Positions 8,685 through 55,414 of a stretch of 64,000 nt of DNA are shown here, one piece after another. Below the pieces are notes generated by a model. The model saw only the letters and a program-made list of their open reading frames with translations, was not told the origin of the DNA and searched no databases. This stretch comes from Bacteroidota bacterium (lineage in GTDB: Bacteria; Bacteroidota; Bacteroidia; UBA8524). Position 1 is the first letter of the stretch. The number at the start of each line of letters is the position of its first letter. The translations under genes were made by a program, and so were the position numbers. The stretch is from NCBI GenBank assembly GCA_008933805.1, contig WBUH01000011.1, forward strand, positions 53,117 to 117,116. The letters are read 5' to 3'.

Positions 8685-9107
8685 TATCCTTAACTCCCGC
8701 CCCTAAAAGGGTACTTTACACACTACGGGCAAGTGCGGCGGACATCCTGAGCCTGCCGAAGGATAGAGCCTGCCGAAGGGCGCGATAGTTGCAACCAGCC
8801 CCTCGCCTTTAGGAGAGGGCGAAATTGAGCTATCAAGCCATCCTTATCCTTCGGGTGAGGTAAGCGAAGAACCCTATAAAAATGTATTAACAGAGCGTGA
8901 TAAGATGCTCCCTTCGTCAGCAAGACAGTAGTTTCTCCGTAATTGCGAGGTCTCCCGCAGCAATCCGCTTACACAATATCAAAAGGATTGCTTCAAAACC
9001 AAATACCTTAACTGTAGGTGATAGATTATTGTACTTTTGCATACTCGTCTTCCCGAATTAATTTCGGGGTAGCATATCCTGTAATGCGATGCTGAACCAA
9101 GTTCAGC
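8685..9107. repeat. 423-bp non-coding spacer carrying short direct repeats (gagcctgccgaagg x2) and hairpins; shares the 'attgcgagg...gcaatcc' motif with the 53-kb repeat cluster
   Basis: 'gagcctgccgaagg' occurs at 8748 and 8766. 'gtaattgcgaggtctcccgcagcaatccgc' resembles 'tcattgcgaggaggtacgacgaagcaatccg' at 53345. Hairpins 'cccgaaattaatttcggg' and 'gctgaaccaagttcagc' sit just upstream of the M16 peptidase start. Confidence 0.5.
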
Positions 9108-10364
9108 ATGACGAACCTCAAAATCAAAGATAACTCTGTGCACAAAATACATCAGTTTCCCAACGGCCTGCGGCTTATATACCAACACCACCCGTCAAAC
9201 ATTGCCCACTTTGGTATTCATATCAATGCGGGCACCCGTGATGAAAGCGCTAACATTATGGGTATGGCTCATTTTATAGAGCATATGCTGTTTAAGGGCA
9301 CCCAAAAACGCCGCGCCTTGCAAATTATCAGCCGACTGGAAGAAGTAGGCGGCGAAATGAACGCCTACACCACGAAAGACAAAACCACCTTGTATGCCTC
9401 GTTTATCGACGGGTATTTGCCCCGTGCAGTTGATTTGCTTACCGATGCAGCCTTTCACTCCAATTTCCCTGAAAAAGAGATGGAGAAGGAAAAGAATGTG
9501 ATACTGGAAGAGATTGATATGTATGCCGATAACCCCGAAGAATGTGTAAACGACGAATTTCAGGAGTTAATGTTTAAAAACCATCCGCTGGGGTATAACA
9601 TATTAGGCACGCAAGACACCGTAAAATCTCTCACCCGCGAGCAATCCATAGGGTTTATAGCTGCCAACTACTTACCGCACAACATTGTGTATGCCTACGT
9701 GGGCAATTCGTCCATAGAAAAGGTAATAGGACTGTGCGAGAAATATATGCCTACCATACAAAACGGCACAAAACCCAATAAACGCGAGGCGTTTAAAAAC
9801 TATGTGCCCTTTACTACCGTTAAAGAAACCGAACACGCCCAGTGCTATTGCGTAATGGGCAACTTATCGTACAATAATTCACACCCGCTGAAACCTGCGT
9901 TGGCTCTGCTATGCAATTTGTTGGGCGGCCCGGGATTGAACTCCCGCTTGAATTTGGCAGTGCGCGAACGCTACGGCTATGCTTACCAAATAGACAGTAG
10001 TTTTTCTACTTATGAAGACACCGGATATTTCAGCATTTATTTCGGTACCGACCCTAAGTACCTTGATAAAACCATGAAACTGGTGGAGGCCGAACTAAAA
10101 CGCCTGCAAAAAGAAGCCCTGAGCGAAACCGTACTGAACAAGTACAAACGGCAGATGGAAGGCCAAATGTTGCTGGCCGAAGAGAGTAAAGTAAGCCTGA
10201 TGCTTTCATTGGGTAAAAGCCTGTTGGATTATAACAAAGTAGATACGCTGGAAGAGGTCATCCAAAAAATATATGCCGTTACCCCCGCCCAAATACTGCA
10301 AGTAGCCCGCGAAGTGTTTGACGAAAGCCAAACCAGCCGCTTGATTTATAAAAGCAAGGCATAA
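9108..10364 (+). CDS. M16 family (pitrilysin/insulinase-like) zinc metallopeptidase
   Basis: It carries the inverted zinc-binding motif 'HFIEHMLFKGT' (HxxEH) near the N-terminus. Length of 418 aa and overall architecture match M16 peptidases. Confidence 0.85.
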   Translation: MTNLKIKDNSVHKIHQFPNGLRLIYQHHPSNIAHFGIHINAGTRDESANIMGMAHFIEHMLFKGTQKRRALQIISRLEEVGGEMNAYTTKDKTTLYASFIDGYLPRAVDLLTDAAFHSNFPEKEMEKEKNVILEEIDMYADNPEECVNDEFQELMFKNHPLGYNILGTQDTVKSLTREQSIGFIAANYLPHNIVYAYVGNSSIEKVIGLCEKYMPTIQNGTKPNKREAFKNYVPFTTVKETEHAQCYCVMGNLSYNNSHPLKPALALLCNLLGGPGLNSRLNLAVRERYGYAYQIDSSFSTYEDTGYFSIYFGTDPKYLDKTMKLVEAELKRLQKEALSETVLNKYKRQMEGQMLLAEESKVSLMLSLGKSLLDYNKVDTLEEVIQKIYAVTPAQILQVAREVFDESQTSRLIYKSKA

Positions 10365-47163: not shown

Positions 47164-48467
47164 CTCCAAAACCATCGGGAATAAATCCTGATGCTATTGA
47201 TAGCAGGTTAGGGTCTGACCGCAACCCGTCATTCCCAACTTGATTGGGAATCTCACTTTTCGACCCCTACACGATTAATTATTAGGCCGACATGCCCATA
47301 GTCGCCTTCCCCTGTAGGGAAGGAAAAGTTAAAGGCTGTCTGCAAAACAGATAGTCAGGAAGGGGGTCAAAGGGTTGCGCGCGGCTTCCCTCCTTGCTAA
47401 AGCCTGTGGGAGGGAAAGGAGGGACTGAGGGAGGTGTGTTACCTAAACCCATCGGGAATAAATCCCGATGCTATTGATAGAATGTTGAGCACTCTATCTA
47501 TAGCGGCAGGTCTGCGAACCTGCCGACCAAAGACCCCATCCCGATTAATTCTTAGCCCGACATTCCCACACTCGCCTTCCCCTGAAAAGTTAAAAGCTGT
47601 CTGCAAAACAAATAGCCAGGAAGGGGTTAGGTTTTTAACTCGCCCCCGAAACTTCCCTTAGCTAGACTTTCAAATAGTCGCCCCTCTCTATATTTAGAGA
47701 GGAAAAGTTTGTTAGTCGCACAATTATCAATCATTCTGGGGTGAGTTAAAATTCTTTTCACGACCACCCCTAACCCTTCCTTTTCCCTACGCTCATACTT
47801 CGACAAGCTCAGTATTGATGCCTTGCAAAGGAGGGGAACAACCGCACAGGCTCACTAACCCAAAATGGTGGCAGCTATAAAAAATATCATTCGGCGTTCA
47901 ATGTCCCCCTCAATGAAGGGGTAGGGGGAGGATTTTTCCCCCTCCTGCACCTCCCAAAGGGAGGAGATTGGAGTGCTAATTGTGCCCATCAAAGCAATCC
48001 GTTTGTTTACCCTCATCCCAGAAAAGCACAGCTTCGCCCGAATATTAGCCAATCCCTTCTCCACATGGAGAAGGGCGACGTGCAAGTGTGGTTAGAGAAC
48101 TGGTTGCTAAGATGAGGCAAAAGCCACCACGACCACCCCTAGCCCCTCCTAAAAACAGGAGGGGAACAACCGCACAGGCTCACCAGCCCAATAATAACGG
48201 CAGTTATTAAAACTCGTTCGGCGTTCAAGGGCTATGCGCGGGGCTTCCCTCCTTGGATAAGGAGGGACAGAGGGAGGTTTGAACACTGGTTGCGGGGATG
48301 AGGCGGCCCAGCGCGTCGCATTTCCCCTCCTACGGTGGGCAGTGGGTGGTTTAGGAGGGGACTAAGGGGTGGTCAGAATAGTGGAAACGTGGGCTATTCC
48401 ACAATTATCAAATGGTCAGGGGTGAGTTAAAACAGGCACAAGCAGGACGCTAGCGGAGGTTATGTTT
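47164..48467. repeat. 1.3-kb non-coding mosaic of at least 5 short repeat families in direct and inverted copies, rich in G/C hairpins
   Basis: There is a ~275-bp tandem duplication (47164-47439 vs 47440-47650: 'ccatcgggaataaatccYgatgctattgatag...gccgacatNcccaNaNtcgccttcccctg...aaagNtgtctgcaaaacaNatagNcaggaagggg'). 'cacgaccacccctaRcccYtcc...aggaggggaacaaccgcacaggctcacYaRcccaa...ttcggcgttcaa' occurs at 47757 and 48123, with an inverted copy 'ggaggggactaaggggtggtcag' at 48350. 'gcgcggcttccctccttg...ggagggaNagagggaggt' occurs at 47380 and 48237. 'caattatcaaNNNtcNggggtgagttaaaa' occurs at 47722 and 48400. Confidence 0.75.
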
Positions 48468-49752: not shown

Positions 49753-52700
49753 ATGAAAATACTGCTGCCTGTTTTTCTTTCATTTATTACAATAAGCGCA
49801 TTCGCACAAGACAAACCCAAGTGGGACGTTAGCAACCCGCCGGGGCCGTATAAAGAAGTTACCATCACCACCCACGAGGGTACGTGGATGAACCTCGACG
49901 TGAGCCCCGATGGCAACACCCTTGTATTTGATATGCTGGGCGATATATACAGCCTGCCCGTTGCGGGCGGCACAGCCGCGCTGTTACGCGGCGGTCATGC
50001 CTTTGAGGTGCAGCCCCGCTTTAGTCCCGATGGTAAAAAAATATGCTTTACCAGCGATGCAGGCGGCGGCGATAACGTGTGGGTGATGGATGCCGACGGT
50101 AAAAACGCCAAACAAATTACCCAAGAAGATTTCCGTTTGCTAAACAACCCCGTGTGGACACCCGACGGGCAATACATTATTGCGCGCAAGCATTTTACCA
50201 GCAGCCGTTCATTAGGCGCGGGCGAAATGTGGATGTACCACATCACTGGCGGCAGCGGCATACAGCTTACCAAACGCAAAAACGACCAGCAGGACGTGAA
50301 CGAGCCAGCCCTTTCGCCCGATGGCCGCTACCTGTACTTTAGCGAGGATATGTACCCCGGCGGCTATTTCCAGTACAACAAAGACCCCAACAGCCAGATA
50401 TACATCATTCGCCGTTACGACCGCGAAACAGGCGAATTGCGAGACCTTATCAGCGGGCCCGGCGGTGCTTGCCGTCCCCAAGCCAGTCCTGACGGAAAAC
50501 AACTGGCTTTTGTGCGCCGTGTACGCACCCAAACCGTGCTGTACGTGCACAACCTGCAAACGGGGCAACAAATCCCCGTGTTTGATAAACTAAGCAAAGA
50601 CCAGCAAGAAGCATGGGCCATTTTCGGTGTGTACACAGGCTACAACTGGCTGCCCGATAACATCCACATCGTTATTTGGGCGCAGGGCAAGCTGTGGAAG
50701 ATAAACACCCAAACCCAACAAGCGGCTGAAATTCCGTTTACGGCCACCGCCACGCACCGTATACACGATGCGGTGAAATTCAGGCAGGAAGTGTCGCCCT
50801 CCACCTTCGAGGCCAAAATGATACGCCACGCCATCACCTCTCCCGACGGGAAAACCCTTGTGTTCTCTGCCGTAGGTTATTTATGGAAAAAAGAATTGCC
50901 CAACGGAACGCCTGTGCGCCTCTCTACCCAAGCCGATGCGTTTGAATTTGAGCCTGTTTTCAGTCCCGATAATAAAAAACTGTTATACGTTACGTGGAAC
51001 GATACCACCACGGGTGCTATTTGGGAATACGAGTTTAAAAAAGGAAAAACCAAAAAAATAACTACTGAAAAAGGTATTTTCCGCGAGCCCGCTTACTCGT
51101 CTGACGGTAAAAAAATAGTGTACCGCAAAGAAGGTGGCAACGACCACCAAGGCTTTACCTATTGCGAAAATACTGGCATATATATAGCCGATACCGATGG
51201 TAAAAACGTACAGTTAGTTAGCGAAGACGGGAGCAATCCTGTTTTTACTGCCGATGGAAAAAATATTTATTACCAACAGGGTAAAAAGTATTTCGAGGTG
51301 GATTTATCGGGCAATAACAAAAAAGAATTATTTACTTCAGAGTACGGAAAAGACTACACCCCAAGTCCCGACGGAAAATGGATAGCCTTTACCGATTTGC
51401 ACAAAGCCTACATTATCCCTGTTCCAAAATCGGGCAAAACCTTTGATTTGAACCGCAACACCAAAGCCGTGCCCGTTTCGCAAGTAGCACGCGATGCCGG
51501 TTTCAACCTGCATTGGAGCGGCGATAGCAAAAAACTGCATTATACATTGGGCGAAGAATATTTTACGGTAGAAATTAAAAACCGTTTCCTTTTTGTAGAG
51601 GGTGCAGCCGATAGCATTGTACCCGTTGATACCGTTGGGATAAAAATAGGTTTGCAATTAAAAACCGATAAACCCGCAGGTACAAAACTGCTTACCAATG
51701 CCCGCATAATCACCGTTGATAATAATAACAACGTGATAGAAAACGGGTATATTTTAATTAAAGACAATATTATCACCGATATAGGCTTGATGACCGATGT
51801 TTGGAAAACCAGCCCCAAAGCGGATGATACCATTGATTGCAGCGGCAAAACCATTATGCCCGGTTTGGTGGATGTACACGCGCATTTGGGTACTTTCCGT
51901 CAAGGCTTGCACCCGCAAAAACACTGGCCATACTATGCAAGTCTGGCATACGGAATCACCACCACGCACGACCCCAGCAGTAACAGCGAAATGGTATTTA
52001 CCCAAAGCGAGATGGTGAAATATGGCAGTATGATTGGTCCCCGTGTATACTCAACAGGGACGATATTGTACGGTGCCGACGGCGATTTTAAGGCCGTGGT
52101 AAATAGTTTAGAGGATGCTAAATCGGCGATACGTAGGACTAAAGCATTGGGTGCTTTTTCGGTGAAAAGCTACAACCAACCTCGCCGCGAGCAACGCCAG
52201 CAGGTGATTGAAGCAGCCCGTCAGTTGAGCATCATGGTAGTACCCGAAGGCGGTTCGTTCTTCTACCACAACATGAGCATGATTTTAGACGGCCATACGG
52301 GCATTGAACACAACATACCCGTTGCTCCTGCATATAATGACGTAATACAACTGTGGAGTGCCAGCCAAACGGGATACACGCCCACGCTGATTGTAAACTA
52401 TGGCGGCGTAAACGGCGAATATTACTGGTACCAGCACACCAACGTGTGGGAAAAGGAACGTTTGCTCAACTTTACCCCTCGCGGCATTATTGACGAGCGC
52501 AGCCGCCACCGCACCATGATACCCGAAGAAGAATACGAAAACGGGCACATTTTGGTAAGTAAGTCGTGCAAACAACTAAGCGATAGCGGTGTGAAGGTGA
52601 ATTTGGGCAGTCATGGACAGATACAAGGCATTGGCGCACATTGGGAACTATGGATGCTGGCACAGGGCGGTATGAGTGCGATGGAAGCCATACGCAGTGC

Positions 52701-53010
52701 TACGATGAACGGTGCGCAATACATCGGCATGGGCGACCAAATAGGCAGCCTTGAACCCGGTAAACTGGCCGATTTGCTGATTATGGATAAAAACCCGCTG
52801 GATACGATTACTAATACCGAAAGCCTTCGCTACACTATGATAAACGGCCGTTTATACGATTGCAATACGCTGAACGAAGTAAACAGCCCTAAAAAACGCG
52901 CACCGTTTTGGTGGGAAAACAATGGCTACAACGCCACCTTCCATTGGCACGAAGAAACCAACAGCTTTATGCCCACCCAATGCGGTTGCGGCGGCCATCA
53001 CGGGGAGTGA
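49753..53010 (+). CDS. secreted TolB-like PD40 beta-propeller repeats fused to a C-terminal metal-dependent amidohydrolase domain
   Basis: Signal peptide 'MKILLPVFLSFITISAFAQ'. Repeated 'SPDG(K/N)xLVF...D...Y' PD40 units are present (about 10). The C-terminal 'GKTIMPGLVDVHAHLG...' (HxH metal site) plus the later 'VNLGSHGQIQG' and 'ADLLIMDKNPL' are amidohydrolase-family motifs. 1085 aa. Confidence 0.8.
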   Translation: MKILLPVFLSFITISAFAQDKPKWDVSNPPGPYKEVTITTHEGTWMNLDVSPDGNTLVFDMLGDIYSLPVAGGTAALLRGGHAFEVQPRFSPDGKKICFTSDAGGGDNVWVMDADGKNAKQITQEDFRLLNNPVWTPDGQYIIARKHFTSSRSLGAGEMWMYHITGGSGIQLTKRKNDQQDVNEPALSPDGRYLYFSEDMYPGGYFQYNKDPNSQIYIIRRYDRETGELRDLISGPGGACRPQASPDGKQLAFVRRVRTQTVLYVHNLQTGQQIPVFDKLSKDQQEAWAIFGVYTGYNWLPDNIHIVIWAQGKLWKINTQTQQAAEIPFTATATHRIHDAVKFRQEVSPSTFEAKMIRHAITSPDGKTLVFSAVGYLWKKELPNGTPVRLSTQADAFEFEPVFSPDNKKLLYVTWNDTTTGAIWEYEFKKGKTKKITTEKGIFREPAYSSDGKKIVYRKEGGNDHQGFTYCENTGIYIADTDGKNVQLVSEDGSNPVFTADGKNIYYQQGKKYFEVDLSGNNKKELFTSEYGKDYTPSPDGKWIAFTDLHKAYIIPVPKSGKTFDLNRNTKAVPVSQVARDAGFNLHWSGDSKKLHYTLGEEYFTVEIKNRFLFVEGAADSIVPVDTVGIKIGLQLKTDKPAGTKLLTNARIITVDNNNNVIENGYILIKDNIITDIGLMTDVWKTSPKADDTIDCSGKTIMPGLVDVHAHLGTFRQGLHPQKHWPYYASLAYGITTTHDPSSNSEMVFTQSEMVKYGSMIGPRVYSTGTILYGADGDFKAVVNSLEDAKSAIRRTKALGAFSVKSYNQPRREQRQQVIEAARQLSIMVVPEGGSFFYHNMSMILDGHTGIEHNIPVAPAYNDVIQLWSASQTGYTPTLIVNYGGVNGEYYWYQHTNVWEKERLLNFTPRGIIDERSRHRTMIPEEEYENGHILVSKSCKQLSDSGVKVNLGSHGQIQGIGAHWELWMLAQGGMSAMEAIRSATMNGAQYIGMGDQIGSLEPGKLADLLIMDKNPLDTITNTESLRYTMINGRLYDCNTLNEVNSPKKRAPFWWENNGYNATFHWHEETNSFMPTQCGCGGHHGE

Positions 53011-53039
53011 TTTATTTATGATTTTTGACTTGTTGATTT

Positions 53040-53388
53040 GGAGATTTAATTCCCGTCTGTGCGTCATTGCGAACGGGTTTTAAAATAATTATTGAATTAT
53101 AAATAAAAGATTAGTGAAGCAATCCCAATGAAACGATACAAACGGATTGCTTCGTCAGCCGAAGACGGCCTCCCCGCAATGACGACTCGGCGTTCGTCAT
53201 TACAAGCGTCAAAATCAATTATACCCGAAACCAAAAAATAATAGCGAAGCAATCTTATACTATCTTTACAAAAAGATTGCTTCGGCAAGCTACGCAAGCC
53301 TCGCAATGACGATAGTTGCTCGAAAAGACAGAAACTTTGCGTCATTGCGAGGAGGTACGACGAAGCAATCCGTTGCCACAGAAATAAA
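53040..53388. repeat. cluster of short palindromic repeat units (core 'ggattgcttcgtcagccgaagacggcctcc[t/c]cgcaatgacg...cgtcattgcgag') upstream of the GIY-YIG gene
   Basis: Repeated 'gattgcttcg' / 'cgaagcaatc' inverted pairs occur at 53111, 53146, 53237, 53273 and 53361. 'cgcaatgacg'/'cgtcattgcg' hairpins occur at 53176/53201, 53301/53340 and 53061. Confidence 0.7.
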
Positions 53389-53700
53389 ATGAAACGTGTC
53401 GGCTATACTTACATTCTAACAAATGCTAATAACACCACATTATATGTTGGGGTTACTGCTGATTTGATGAAAAGAATGGAGGAGCATATTAATAAGAAGT
53501 TTCCCAATAGTTTTTCAGCAAAATACAATTTAACAACGCTGGTTTGGTTTGAAGGGTTTAACCACATAGAAGAAGCCATTGCAAGAGAAAAACAATTAAA
53601 AGCAGGGAGTAGAAAACGAAAAGAGGAGTTGATAAATACTATAAATCCCAAGTGGGAAAATTTATACCTCAAGATTATTTCGGGGGAGATTGAGGTTTAA
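53389..53700 (+). CDS. GIY-YIG nuclease family protein (small, stand-alone)
   Basis: 'GYTYILTNANNTTLYVGVTADLMKRMEEH' matches the GIY...YIG motif and spacing of small GIY-YIG (UPF0213-like) proteins. 103 aa, embedded in the palindromic repeat cluster. Confidence 0.7.
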   Translation: MKRVGYTYILTNANNTTLYVGVTADLMKRMEEHINKKFPNSFSAKYNLTTLVWFEGFNHIEEAIAREKQLKAGSRKRKEELINTINPKWENLYLKIISGEIEV

Positions 53701-54070
53701 CTTTGGGATTGCTTCGTCGCCCGAAGACGGCCTCCTCGCAATGACGAACTTTGGCCGCCACCTCGTCATTGCGAACAGGTAATTTCAAAAAGCAGGAAAT
53801 TATATATTTTGGTTAGTGAAGCAGTCTTTTGAAATAATTCATTGGGATTGCTTCGTCAGCCGAAGACGGCTTCCTCGCAATGACGGCTCGGCGTTCGTCA
53901 TTGCGAGCGGCAAAACCAATTATACCTGAAAACCAAAAAATAATAGCGAAGCAATCTTTAACGACCTTTACAAACGGATTGCTTCGTTGACCTAAGAAGG
54001 TCTCCTCGCAATGAACGAACGCCGAGCAGGCTTAACAATTAGCCTATAACCCTCCCCGCAATTACCGTAA
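53701..54070. repeat. continuation of the palindromic repeat cluster downstream of the GIY-YIG gene (at least 3 more units)
   Basis: 'gggattgcttcgtcgcccgaagacggcctcctcgcaatgacgaac...cgtcattgcgaac' at 53705. 'gggattgcttcgtcagccgaagacggcttcctcgcaatgacggctcggcgttcgtcattgcgagcg' at 53843. 'ggattgcttcgttgacctaagaaggtctcctcgcaatgaacgaacgccgag' at 53966. 'tagcgaagcaatc' at 53944. Confidence 0.7.
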
Positions 54071-54142
54071 AACCAAGTCTTTAGTAACAAGCAGTTGAAC
54101 ATTACCCCATTTTGCGCTATTTTTGAGGGCATATAGATTTTT

Positions 54143-55414
54143 ATGTTACAGCTTAGCTATTTACGAGAGAACACAAACGAAGCCATAGAAAGGCTTAGTA
54201 AGAAAATTGCCAACGCAAAAGAAGGCGTAGAGGCTGTTTTGTTGGTTGACGACAAACGCCGCGCAGCACAAAAAGAGCTTGACGATGTTTTGGCAGTCTC
54301 CAACAAATTGGCTAAGGAAATTGGCGACTTGTACAAAAGCGGTCAGCGTGAAAAGGCCGACGAGCTAAAACAACAAACCGTCGTGCAAAAGGAGAAAGAA
54401 AAAACCCTTTTGGGGCAGCTTGAGAAACTGGAAGCCGAGTTGAAAGATGCTTTGGTGATATTGCCCAACGCCCCCAGTCCGATGGTGCCTGTGGGTCGCA
54501 CGCCCGAAGATAACGAGGTAGTAAAAACATGGGGAACGATGCCCGCTTTGCAAGAAGGAGCTAAACCCCACTGGGAACTTACCACCCAATACGATTTGAT
54601 TGATTTTGAAACCGGTGCTAAAATTACCGGAGCAGGTTTCCCTGTATACCGCGGCAAAGGAGCAAGGTTGCAACGCGCCCTTATTAACTTCTTTTTAGAC
54701 GAAGGGTTAAAAGCCGGATATTTCGAAATTCAACCACCGATTTTTATTAACGAAGACAGCGGTTTCGGTACCGGTCAGCTACCCGATAAAGAAGGACAGA
54801 TGTACCATATGCAGTTGGATAACTTGTACGCTATCCCAACGGCAGAGGTGCCCATTACCAACTTGTACCGCGATGTGATTGTGCGCGAGGATGAACTACC
54901 CATTAAAAACATGGGCTATACTCCTTGCTTCCGTCGCGAGGCAGGCAGTTATGGTAAAGACGTTCGCGGCTTGAACCGTTTGCACCAGTTTGACAAGGTG
55001 GAGATTGTGCAGGTAACCACTCCCGAAAAATCGTACGAAACGTTGGAGCAAATGAGCGAATACGTTCAAAGCCTGTTGCAAAAGCTTGAGCTGCACTACC
55101 GCGTATTGCGCTTGTGCGGTGGTGATATGAGCTTTGCCAGTGCCCTCACGTATGATATGGAGGTGTACAGCGCAGCCCAGCAACGTTGGTTAGAGGTGAG
55201 CTCGGTATCAAACTTTGAAACCTTCCAAGCCAACCGTTTGAAGTTGCGTTATAAAAACAGCGAGGGTAAAAATATCATCGCTCATACACTAAACGGCAGT
55301 GCGCTGGCGTTACCCCGTATTGTAGCTGCATTACTCGAAAACAACCAAACCCCTGACGGAATTGTGTTGCCCAAAGTATTGCACCCCTACACGGGCTTTG
55401 AAATCATAAAATAA
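54143..55414 (+). CDS. serS: serine--tRNA ligase
   Basis: 423 aa. The N-terminal coiled-coil arm is followed by a class II core ('TAEVPITNLY', 'CFRREAGSYGKDVRGLNRLHQFDKVE', 'GSALALPRIVAALLENNQ'). Confidence 0.9.
   Translation: MLQLSYLRENTNEAIERLSKKIANAKEGVEAVLLVDDKRRAAQKELDDVLAVSNKLAKEIGDLYKSGQREKADELKQQTVVQKEKEKTLLGQLEKLEAELKDALVILPNAPSPMVPVGRTPEDNEVVKTWGTMPALQEGAKPHWELTTQYDLIDFETGAKITGAGFPVYRGKGARLQRALINFFLDEGLKAGYFEIQPPIFINEDSGFGTGQLPDKEGQMYHMQLDNLYAIPTAEVPITNLYRDVIVREDELPIKNMGYTPCFRREAGSYGKDVRGLNRLHQFDKVEIVQVTTPEKSYETLEQMSEYVQSLLQKLELHYRVLRLCGGDMSFASALTYDMEVYSAAQQRWLEVSSVSNFETFQANRLKLRYKNSEGKNIIAHTLNGSALALPRIVAALLENNQTPDGIVLPKVLHPYTGFEIIK

What the first reader, a model, noticed from the sequence alone, without database searches (positions are those of the whole stretch)
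53040..54070. Stand-alone GIY-YIG nuclease gene embedded in at least 8 copies of a two-hairpin palindromic unit
Units of the form 'ggattgcttcg-tcagc-cgaagacggcctcctcgcaatgacg-N10-cgtcattgcgag' recur on both sides of the 103-aa GIY-YIG gene. Each unit carries two inverted repeats ('gattgcttcg'/'cgaagcaatc' and 'cgcaatgacg'/'cgtcattgcg'). The arrangement suggests either a mobile GIY-YIG cassette with terminal repeats, or a nuclease that recognises or maintains this repeat family. Related modules occur at 8930-8970.
Basis: seen in the sequence. Interest (0 to 1): 0.55.

Follow-up and report, generated by a model that had tools for sequence, protein, structure and literature searches.

The report
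Ssn-type ssDNA nuclease with target repeats
This is a small GIY-YIG nuclease gene of the recently described Ssn family (enzymes that cut single-stranded DNA next to a specific hairpin), sitting inside an array of its presumed target hairpins, so it is a real but already explained kind of feature.

Summary
A 103-aa single-domain GIY-YIG ORF (53389-53700, +) lies in the 1.1-kb gap between a Tricorn-like amidohydrolase gene and serS. It is surrounded by 10 copies of one oriented module, CGTCATTGCGA-insert-GAAGCAATC(C/T). They form five inverted dimers, and the gene sits in the central loop of the third.

This is an Ssn/SRM locus (Chenal et al. 2025, PMC11893778). The protein is 43% identical (E=1e-24) to the 94-aa Neisseria gonorrhoeae ORF that lies among 16 NTS repeats. 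The three residues mutated in the paper are conserved. The module shares the NTS frame: CGTC, a palindrome starting ATT, then AAT-C.

In 80 genomes carrying homologues, 64 have the module on both sides of the gene. Density is about 100-fold higher within 100 nt than beyond 1 kb.

Two points depart from the publication. The module fails the published SRM search pattern, and a single module is predicted to fold only weakly.

Verdict: new member of a known kind, modest interest. Cleavage itself is inferred, not tested.

The parts
53389..53700 (+). ssn-like gene: 103-aa single-domain GIY-YIG nuclease
   Evidence: ORF. Pfam PF01541 E=1.5e-15. 43% identity and E=1e-24 to the 94-aa N. gonorrhoeae ORF that lies among NTS repeats. 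Y8, Y19 and E67 align with Y6, Y17 and E64. Model pLDDT 95 with a GIY-YIG fold.
53340..53371 (+). Compact SRM-like module immediately upstream of the gene: CGTCATTGCGAGGAGGTACGACGAAGCAATCC. It is the left arm of dimer 3.
   Evidence: (I3 16/16 and I12 14/14 complementary to 53706-53746).
53706..53746 (-). Compact module immediately downstream of the gene, reading CGTCATTGCGAGGAGGCCGTCTTCGGGCGACGAAGCAATCC on the minus strand. It is the right arm of dimer 3. The 15-nt insert forms its own small hairpin.
53144..53184 (-). Compact module, right arm of dimer 1 (dimer spans 53061-53184)
   Evidence: (family D2). The dimer folds as single-stranded DNA at -28.1 kcal/mol, z -6.7.
53274..53311 (-). Compact module, right arm of dimer 2 (dimer spans 53195-53311)
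53845..53885 (-). Compact module, right arm of dimer 4 (dimer spans 53764-53885)
   Evidence: The dimer folds at -24.8 kcal/mol, z -5.2.
53976..54014 (-). Module with a degenerate CGTCAT end (...CTCGCAATGAac), right arm of dimer 5
   Evidence: (D2, 77%).
53061..53125 (+). 'Split' module: CGTCATTGCGA, a 43-nt AT-rich insert, then GAAGCAATCC. Left arm of dimer 1.
   Evidence: Inserts of 41-47 nt recur in other genomes.
53195..53254 (+). Split module with a degenerate 5' half (CGTCATTACAAG ... GCGAAGCAATC). Left arm of dimer 2.
53764..53826 (+). Split module with a degenerate 3' half (GAAGCAGTC). Left arm of dimer 4.
53896..53956 (+). Split module, left arm of dimer 5
54051..54066 (.). Remnant half-site CCTCCCCGCAATTACC at the serS-proximal end of the array
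   Evidence: family D4.
8936..8995 (+). Remote, decayed copy: CCGTAATTGCGAGGTCTCCCGCAGCAATCC, an 18-nt loop, then GGATTGCTTCa

Best explanation
The locus is an Ssn/SRM system. It consists of a single-domain GIY-YIG endonuclease of the Ssn family (CDD cd10448 type) together with an array of its cognate Ssn-related motifs.

Shown here:
- homology to the Neisseria protein;
- conserved catalytic residues;
- a module sharing the NTS frame (CGTC, a palindrome beginning ATT and ending AAT, then C);
- very strong gene-module co-localisation across Bacteroidota.

Inferred from the published biochemistry of four homologues: the protein binds the module only when the DNA is single-stranded (during replication, transformation, conjugation or repair). 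It reads the strand that spells CGTCATTGCGA...GAAGCAATC and nicks a few nucleotides 5' of CGTC. It ignores duplex DNA, RNA and the complementary strand.

In this window the presumed cleavable strand is the plus strand for the module at 53340-53371 and the four split copies. It is the minus strand for the five compact copies.

The biological role in Bacteroidota is unknown. By analogy with Neisseria it would restrict or shape recombination of incoming or exposed single-stranded DNA that carries the motif.
For: 1. Protein. GIY-YIG domain. tblastn E=4e-15 against a 7.3-Gb database, hitting the only match in an N. gonorrhoeae chromosome. That 94-aa ORF sits among 16 NTS copies in 3.3 kb. BLASTP gives 43% identity at E=1e-24, with Y8/Y19/E67 aligned to Y6/Y17/E64, the residues whose mutation abolished cleavage in the paper. 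The protein is a single domain with no extra DNA-binding domain.

2. Motif. The consensus from 275 modules is C-GTCATTGCGA-insert-GAAGCAATC-T. It keeps the GTC 5' of the palindrome and the C right after it. The paper found these positions critical for cleavage and binding respectively.

3. Hairpin. Compensated stem variants occur: ACTGC, ATCGC, ATAGC, ATCAC. Other stems in the same frame occur next to homologues that lack the module: ATTCCCGC, ATTCT, ATATC, ATCTC, ATGCCCAA. Inserts are GNA triloops (GGAAC, GGCAC) or self-complementary hairpins.

4. Association. 64 of 80 genomes have half-sites on both sides within 400 nt, and 10 more on one side. Density is 7.1 modules per kb at 0-100 nt against 0.04-0.08 per kb beyond 1 kb. 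Close homologues in a different genomic context (L004/L125) are flanked in the same way.
Against: - No biochemistry was done here, and no Bacteroidota homologue is among the four enzymes tested in the paper.
- The module does not match the published SRM search pattern: 0 hits in the window, whereas that pattern hits the NTS.
- A single module is predicted to fold weakly as DNA (-2.4 to -8.2 kcal/mol, z between +0.9 and -1.2). The NTS folds at -8.9 kcal/mol, z -4.45. The thermodynamically favoured structure is pairing between neighbouring inverted modules (z -5 to -7), so the recognised structure may differ from the NTS hairpin.
- Homologues with different stem types do not cluster by protein similarity, so strict enzyme-motif co-evolution is not evident in this sample.
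- CDD assignment (cd10448) could not be run.
Confidence: 0.8

Rival explanations
1. The unit module(-)-gene-module(+) is an autonomous IS-like mobile element with terminal inverted repeats. The gene-less inverted dimers would be its non-autonomous MITE- or REPIN-like derivatives, spread by the nuclease. This is not mutually exclusive with the Ssn reading.
For: - The inverted-repeat architecture around the gene is the commonest arrangement in other genomes (upstream module forward in 36 loci, downstream module reverse in 41 loci of 80).
- Homologues lie in unrelated neighbourhoods.
- The array next to this amidohydrolase gene is lineage-specific: absent downstream of 79 more distant orthologues.
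- Orphan modules and dimers are widespread, including at least 120 viral contigs.
- The authors of PMC11893778 raise the same idea.
Against: - A roughly 100-aa GIY-YIG nuclease has no known strand-transfer activity.
- There is one copy in the window.
- An identical protein (P0093) is in the same leuS/Tricorn context in all 24 contigs read.
- No target-site duplication or clean empty site was found.
- The predicted cleavage (5' of CGTC) does not coincide with the cargo boundaries, which lie at the AATCC ends.
Confidence: 0.12
2. The repeats are RNA-level or generic DNA structural elements, such as terminators, mRNA stabilisers or REP-like sites for other proteins. On this view the GIY-YIG gene merely landed in a repeat-rich intergenic region.
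For: - Orphan modules lie mostly outside long ORFs. Only 37% fall inside naive ORFs, against 82% of bases covered by such ORFs.
- The dimers form very stable hairpins.
Against: - There is no Rfam match at E<=1.
- The modules occur in both orientations in the same array.
- Enrichment within 100 nt of homologous genes is about 100-fold across 80 genomes.
- The module shares the oriented CGTC...C frame of the experimentally defined Ssn target.
Confidence: 0.05
3. The gene is a free-standing GIY-YIG homing endonuclease that cuts duplex copies of the palindrome and copies itself into them.
For: - The gene sits exactly in the central loop of a palindromic dimer whose empty versions exist.
- There is a weak, sub-threshold NCBIfam match to group I intron endonuclease: 24.8 bits against a cutoff of 56.
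Against: - The protein lacks the C-terminal DNA-binding domains of I-TevI/Seg-type enzymes. It is 103 aa with a single domain.
- In other genomes the gene sits between the opposite module ends (L125, L143), so there is no fixed homing site.
- It is single copy with a stable context.
Confidence: 0.03

Closest known systems
SsnA/NTS of Neisseria meningitidis and the Ssn family with SRM repeats (Chenal et al., Nat Commun 2025;16:2388, PMC11893778)
   Same: - A single-domain GIY-YIG protein of about 100 aa, 43% identical to the Neisseria homologue, with conserved catalytic Tyr/Tyr/Glu.
- The gene is flanked on both sides by oriented hairpin repeats in the frame CGTC-ATT...AAT-C, alternating in orientation.
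- Orphan copies of the repeat occur elsewhere and mostly outside genes.
   Different: - The stem is only 5 bp (ATTGC/GCAAT). It has a purine-rich interior and either a GNA triloop or a nested hairpin, instead of the 8-bp GC-rich NTS stem.
- The module fails the published SRM search pattern, and a single module is predicted to be weakly stable.
- Modules are organised as inverted dimers, with the gene in a dimer loop.
- Copy density outside the array looks low in this window: one decayed copy in about 63 kb.
- The host is Bacteroidota, and no enzyme from that phylum has been assayed.
REP/BIME repeats with RAYT (IS200/IS605-like TnpA) and REPIN doublets
   Same: A single-copy nuclease gene is flanked by inverted copies of a short palindromic repeat that is dispersed as orphans and as inverted doublets. 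Recognition is of hairpins in single-stranded DNA.
   Different: - The enzyme is unrelated (HUH Y1 transposase versus GIY-YIG).
- REP sequences are species-specific, whereas this module is nearly invariant across many Bacteroidota genera and appears in MAGs labelled Chlorobiota, Omnitrophota and Proteobacteria.
- No evidence was obtained that Ssn spreads the repeats.
UPF0213 / YhbQ-YazA stand-alone GIY-YIG proteins (PDB 1ZG2, BH0048)
   Same: This is the closest solved structure and sequence in the PDB. It is a stand-alone GIY-YIG domain of similar size.
   Different: Similarity is only marginal (E=4e-4, 30% over the structural alignment). It belongs to a different CDD family and has no reported association with flanking hairpin repeats.

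Membership tests
Ssn nuclease family (cd10448) with SRM repeats | Single-domain GIY-YIG protein of about 90-105 aa with no additional DNA-binding domain | tested here: met
   103 aa. Pfam GIY-YIG covers residues 5-78. The model has pLDDT 95 and is one compact domain. PDB matches are GIY-YIG domains only.
Ssn nuclease family (cd10448) with SRM repeats | Homology to Neisseria SsnA at E<1e-10 (the paper's tblastn criterion) | tested here: met
   tblastn E=4e-15 to the only match in an N. gonorrhoeae chromosome. BLASTP gives 43% identity at E=1e-24 to the 94-aa ORF among NTS repeats. That this ORF is the SsnA orthologue is inferred from its length, uniqueness and NTS context.
Ssn nuclease family (cd10448) with SRM repeats | Conserved residues needed for cleavage (Nm Y6, Y17, E64) | tested here: met
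   Y8, Y19 and E67 align with them. They are invariant in 25 homologues. Mutant data are from PMC11893778.
Ssn nuclease family (cd10448) with SRM repeats | Assignment to CDD cd10448 (GIY-YIG_unchar_3) or placement in that clade | not testable with these tools
   No CDD/rpsblast tool is available. NCBIfam gave only a sub-threshold intron-endonuclease match.
Ssn nuclease family (cd10448) with SRM repeats | Gene flanked 5' and 3' by oriented hairpin repeats | tested here: met
   Ten modules lie within 330 nt either side. The same holds in 64 of 80 genomes with homologues. Enrichment is about 100-fold.
Ssn nuclease family (cd10448) with SRM repeats | Repeat matches the published SRM search pattern HGTCWYN(0-2)YYVSBRHN(0-5)WNVSBRGN(0-2)RNCYNB | tested here: not met
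   0 hits in the 64-kb window, and none of three canonical module variants match. The NTS matches. The pattern is a search heuristic built from 29 genomes, not a definition of the family.
Ssn nuclease family (cd10448) with SRM repeats | Repeat keeps the functionally critical positions: GTC just 5' of the palindrome and C just 3' of it | tested here: met
   In the consensus, G99 T100 C97 precede ATTGC, and C97 follows GCAAT. Their importance is reported in PMC11893778.
Ssn nuclease family (cd10448) with SRM repeats | Repeat forms a hairpin on its own in single-stranded DNA | tested here: inconclusive
   The 5-bp stem is supported by compensated variants. Predicted stability is no better than shuffles, at z +0.9 to -1.2. 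The energy model does not credit sheared G-A pairs or GNA triloops.
Ssn nuclease family (cd10448) with SRM repeats | Strand- and sequence-specific cleavage of single-stranded DNA only | not testable with these tools
   This requires purified protein and oligonucleotide assays.
REP/RAYT systems | Flanked gene encodes an IS200/IS605-type HUH (Y1) transposase | tested here: not met
   The gene is GIY-YIG.
GIY-YIG homing endonucleases (I-TevI/Seg type) | N-terminal GIY-YIG domain joined to a C-terminal DNA-binding region | tested here: not met
   103 aa with a single domain. The TIGR01453 match scores 24.8 bits against a cutoff of 56.

The most novel reading that the evidence does not exclude
The inverted module dimers may be more than nuclease targets. 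They could be a REPIN-like unit whose central loop serves as a landing or exchange site for genes.

In this window one dimer holds the nuclease gene. In a strain with about 95% nucleotide identity across the locus (L001), the neighbouring dimer holds a 1.65-kb segment where the window has an 18-nt loop. That segment encodes a TIR-like effector (PADLOC E=3.8e-19) and a HisKA/receiver protein.

If single-strand nicking by Ssn at these dimers drives such cassette turnover, Bacteroidota would have a new hairpin-guided gene-exchange platform. It would also carry an SRM class that the published search pattern misses.
Probability: 0.1. Interest if true: 0.7.

Novelty: new member of a known kind. Interest (0 to 1): 0.3.

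Why it matters
The locus adds a Bacteroidota example to a nuclease family described only in 2025.

The commonest flanking motif in this sample (59 of the 82 sequences classified: 80 loci, the window and Neisseria) is a variant that the published SRM search pattern does not detect. Ssn-repeat associations in this phylum are therefore probably under-counted.

The motif is nearly invariant across many genera. That makes it an easy candidate for a new single-strand cleavage specificity, which is the biotechnological interest of the family.

It does not open a new biological question beyond those the original paper already raised, namely the role outside Neisseria and a possible mobile origin.

Tried and rejected
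- **Rfam:** a scan of 52900-54250 at E<=1 found nothing.
- **Literature by sequence:** full-text search for the motif as DNA strings or as its typical spurious translations returned only unrelated primer matches. Searches for REP/Bacteroidetes terms, SsnA and cd10448 returned nothing beyond PMC11893778. The paper's supplementary tables are not held.
- **Solved structures:** there is no SsnA entry in the PDB by sequence or fold, only UPF0213 BH0048, Slx1 and UvrC.
- **Defence annotation:** the protein has no meaningful PADLOC match.
- **Recent mobility:** the identical protein P0093, recorded on many contigs, is always in one context.
- **Empty site:** 79 more distant orthologues of the upstream amidohydrolase lack the nuclease gene and the modules. 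They also lack serS downstream, so there is no syntenic empty site to compare.
- **Enzyme/motif co-evolution:** homologues flanked by other stem types do not group together by protein identity.
- **Single-module folding:** predicted stability is not better than shuffles, so thermodynamics alone cannot decide which structure is recognised.
- **Promoter:** no Bacteroidota-type -7 box (TAnnTTTG) lies upstream of the gene. The only ones in the gap overlap the stop codon (53698) and precede serS (54118).

Full report
**1. What is in the sequence**

The 1.13-kb gap between a 1085-aa PD40/Tricorn-like amidohydrolase gene (49753-53010, +) and serS (54143-55414, +) holds one intact ORF. It runs 53389-53700 (+) and encodes 103 aa, matching Pfam GIY-YIG at E=1.5e-15 over residues 5-78.

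The rest of the gap is built from one repeated module. On the plus strand it reads GGATTGCTTCG-N-CTCGCAATGACG. On the other strand it reads CGTCATTGCGA-N-GAAGCAATCC.

- The half-site CGTCATTGCGA occurs 9 times in the 64-kb window against 0.68 expected. Eight of these lie in 53062-53906.
- GATTGCTTCG occurs 15 times against 3.2 expected, ten of them between 53115 and 53986.

I count 10 modules:
- Five are compact and read CGTCATT... on the minus strand: 53144-53184, 53274-53311, 53706-53746, 53845-53885, and 53976-54014 (degenerate).
- One is compact on the plus strand: 53340-53371.
- Four on the plus strand are split by a 39-45-nt AT-rich insert: 53061-53125, 53195-53254, 53764-53826, 53896-53956.

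The natural higher unit is an inverted dimer: module, an 18-19-nt loop, then the inverted module. There are five dimers, 10-28 nt apart. The third carries the GIY-YIG gene in place of the short loop. A decayed copy lies at 8936-8995.

The count should be five two-hairpin units, or ten modules, rather than eight or more units.

**2. Identification**

Rfam has nothing here. The protein has over a thousand close homologues, almost all from Bacteroidota and annotated only as GIY-YIG nuclease family protein.

The literature held by the tools contains one directly relevant paper: Chenal et al. 2025 (PMC11893778). It defines the Ssn family as single-domain GIY-YIG proteins of about 94 aa (CDD cd10448). 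Their genes are flanked by hairpin repeats: the NTS in Neisseria (CGTCATTCCCGCGMAVGCGGGAATCYRG) and 'SRM' repeats in general.

Four homologues (three Neisseria, one Wolbachia) were shown in vitro to cleave single-stranded DNA near their own repeat. For the N. meningitidis enzyme the paper also shows:
- binding of the repeat only as single-stranded DNA;
- cutting a few nucleotides upstream of the repeat;
- no activity on duplex DNA, RNA or the reverse strand.

**3. Link to the characterised enzyme**

A tblastn search of the plasmid collection hit N. gonorrhoeae chromosomes that are filed there as plasmids (E=4e-15). The matched region encodes a 94-aa ORF lying among 16 NTS copies in 3.3 kb, in alternating orientation.

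BLASTP of the window protein against that ORF gives 43% identity over 91 residues at E=1e-24. Y8, Y19 and E67 align with Y6, Y17 and E64, the residues whose mutation abolished cleavage in the paper. They are invariant in an alignment of 25 homologues.

The predicted structure (pLDDT 95) is a single GIY-YIG domain with no appended DNA-binding domain. Its best solved relatives are UPF0213 BH0048, Slx1 and the UvrC N-terminal domain. No SsnA structure is in the PDB.

**4. The module as an SRM**

From 275 compact modules in 80 genomes the consensus is C-GTCATTGCGA-insert-GAAGCAATC-T. It shares with the NTS the CGTC tail, a palindrome that starts ATT and ends AAT, and the C immediately after it. 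The paper found the three bases upstream of the palindrome decisive for cleavage and that C decisive for binding.

The palindrome here is only ATTGC/GCAAT. It is supported by compensated variants (ACTGC, ATCGC, ATAGC, ATCAC). It is also supported by quite different stems in the same frame next to homologues that lack this module: ATTCCCGC, ATTCT, ATATC, ATCTC, ATGCCCAA.

The inserts are GNA triloops closed by G-C (GGAAC, GGCAC), or GA-rich extensions of these, or self-complementary hairpins.

Two things depart from the published picture:
- The module does not match the published degenerate SRM pattern. There are no hits in the window, while the NTS matches.
- Single modules are predicted to fold no better than shuffled sequence (-2.4 to -8.2 kcal/mol, z +0.9 to -1.2), whereas the NTS gives -8.9 kcal/mol and z -4.45.

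Whole dimers fold strongly through pairing between the two inverted modules: -28.1 kcal/mol (z -6.7) and -24.8 kcal/mol (z -5.2). The energy model does not credit sheared G-A pairs or GNA loops. Which structure the enzyme reads therefore remains open.

**5. Association across genomes**

In 80 genome loci encoding homologues (50-71% identity, mostly Bacteroidota), 64 have module half-sites within 400 nt on both sides. Ten more have them on one side and 6 have none. Four of those six (L164, L169, L178, L196) carry other CGTCAT-type hairpins on both sides of the gene, L174 only downstream, and L158 none.

Module density by distance from the gene:

| Distance from gene | Modules per kb |
|---|---|
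| 0-100 nt | 7.1 |
| 100-200 nt | 3.7 |
| 200-400 nt | 1.5 |
| beyond 1 kb | 0.04-0.08 |

The simplest and commonest layout is one module on each side with the CGTC ends pointing outward, as in this window. The opposite layout also occurs (L125, L143, and Neisseria).

Close homologues at the same locus (L001, L003) and at an unrelated locus in a 3.79-Mb genome (L004/L125) are flanked in the same way.

In the other direction, the module is common without the gene. Only one of these contigs has a GIY-YIG ORF of this family, 2 kb away. These orphans are depleted from long ORFs.

That asymmetry is exactly what the Ssn paper reports for the NTS.

**6. Mobility**

The architecture resembles an insertion sequence with terminal inverted repeats, and the authors of the paper say so too. 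I found no positive evidence of movement:
- There is one copy in the window.
- An identical protein recorded on many contigs sat in one and the same context in all 24 contigs read.
- Among 79 more distant orthologues of the upstream amidohydrolase, none has the nuclease gene or the modules downstream. The arrangement is therefore lineage-specific. They also lack serS downstream, so no empty site is available for comparison.
- Homologues with different stem types do not cluster by protein similarity.

**7. A polymorphism worth noting**

A contig with about 95% nucleotide identity across the locus (L001) is colinear with the window except for two segments.
- A 576-nt segment with a 181-aa membrane-like ORF follows the amidohydrolase stop. 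It is bounded by a 25-nt direct repeat of the end of that gene.
- A segment of about 1.65 kb replaces the window's 53789-53845. It lies exactly between the two modules of dimer 4. It encodes a protein with a TIR-like effector match (PADLOC E=3.8e-19) and a HisKA/receiver protein.

The cargo boundaries lie at the AATCC ends of the modules, not at the predicted cleavage side. This does not by itself implicate the nuclease.

**8. Verdict**

The feature is real and is an Ssn-type nuclease gene embedded in its presumed target repeats. Family membership is well supported by sequence, conserved residues, motif frame and comparative context. The activity is inferred from homologues.

It is a new member of a known kind. 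Its motif variant escapes the published search pattern and appears to be the predominant one in Bacteroidota. Interest is modest.

Noticed in passing
window 9088-9112 (-) and 47228-47252 (+): Two isolated hairpins of other SRM types in the same CGTC...C frame: CGTCATGCTGAACTTGGTTCAGCATC (9-bp stem) and CGTCATTCCCAACTTGATTGGGAATC (8-bp stem). A generic scan found 11 frame matches in the window against 3.0 +/- 1.4 in shuffles. They suggest further motif families, and perhaps further ssn paralogues, elsewhere in the genome.
   Followed up: partly
L001 4446-6095 (corresponds to window 53789-53845): A strain with about 95% nucleotide identity across the locus carries about 1.65 kb between the two modules of dimer 4, where the window has an 18-nt loop. 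One gene has a TIR-like effector match (PADLOC PDLC00733, E=3.8e-19) and a weak nucleoside 2-deoxyribosyltransferase match. The other is a HisKA/receiver protein on the opposite strand.
   Followed up: partly
L001 3029-3604; L003 5608-5710; window 52943-53046: The 3' end of the amidohydrolase gene is duplicated at the far side of inserted material. In L001 a 25-nt direct repeat bounds a 576-nt insert with a 181-aa membrane-like ORF. In L003 a roughly 100-nt copy follows the ssn array plus a 306-aa ORF with no family match. This looks like a recurrent insertion site at the gene's end.
   Followed up: partly
L130 15509-15779; L173 7153-7272; L029 2727-2818: There are head-to-tail arrays of the module in one orientation: seven copies at about a 45-nt period in L130, four at about 40 nt in L173, and three at 33 nt in a viral contig. 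These are unlike the alternating arrays around ssn genes.
   Followed up: no
window 53073-53115, 53207-53243, 53775-53816, 53908-53946: The 39-45-nt AT-rich inserts that split the plus-strand modules fall into two conserved types: ACRGGT...TTAGT and CGNCAAAA...AATAATAGC. Inserts of 41-47 nt recur in other genomes. Their role is unexplained.
   Followed up: no
L005-L124 (IMG/VR contigs): The module is present in at least 120 contigs classed as viral, often as inverted dimers, almost never with an ssn gene, and mostly outside long ORFs. Whether phages carry it as a liability, a decoy or through host-derived DNA is unknown.
   Followed up: partly
window 8749-8790: Two adjacent copies of GAGCCTGCCGAAGG lie in the same intergenic region as the decayed module. 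This is a different short repeat.
   Followed up: no
L205 (NZ_CP119140.1 1880787-1884056): The plasmid collection holds complete N. gonorrhoeae chromosomes (2.17 Mb) labelled as plasmids and almost unannotated. This is what allowed the ssnA region with 16 NTS copies to be read here.
   Followed up: yes
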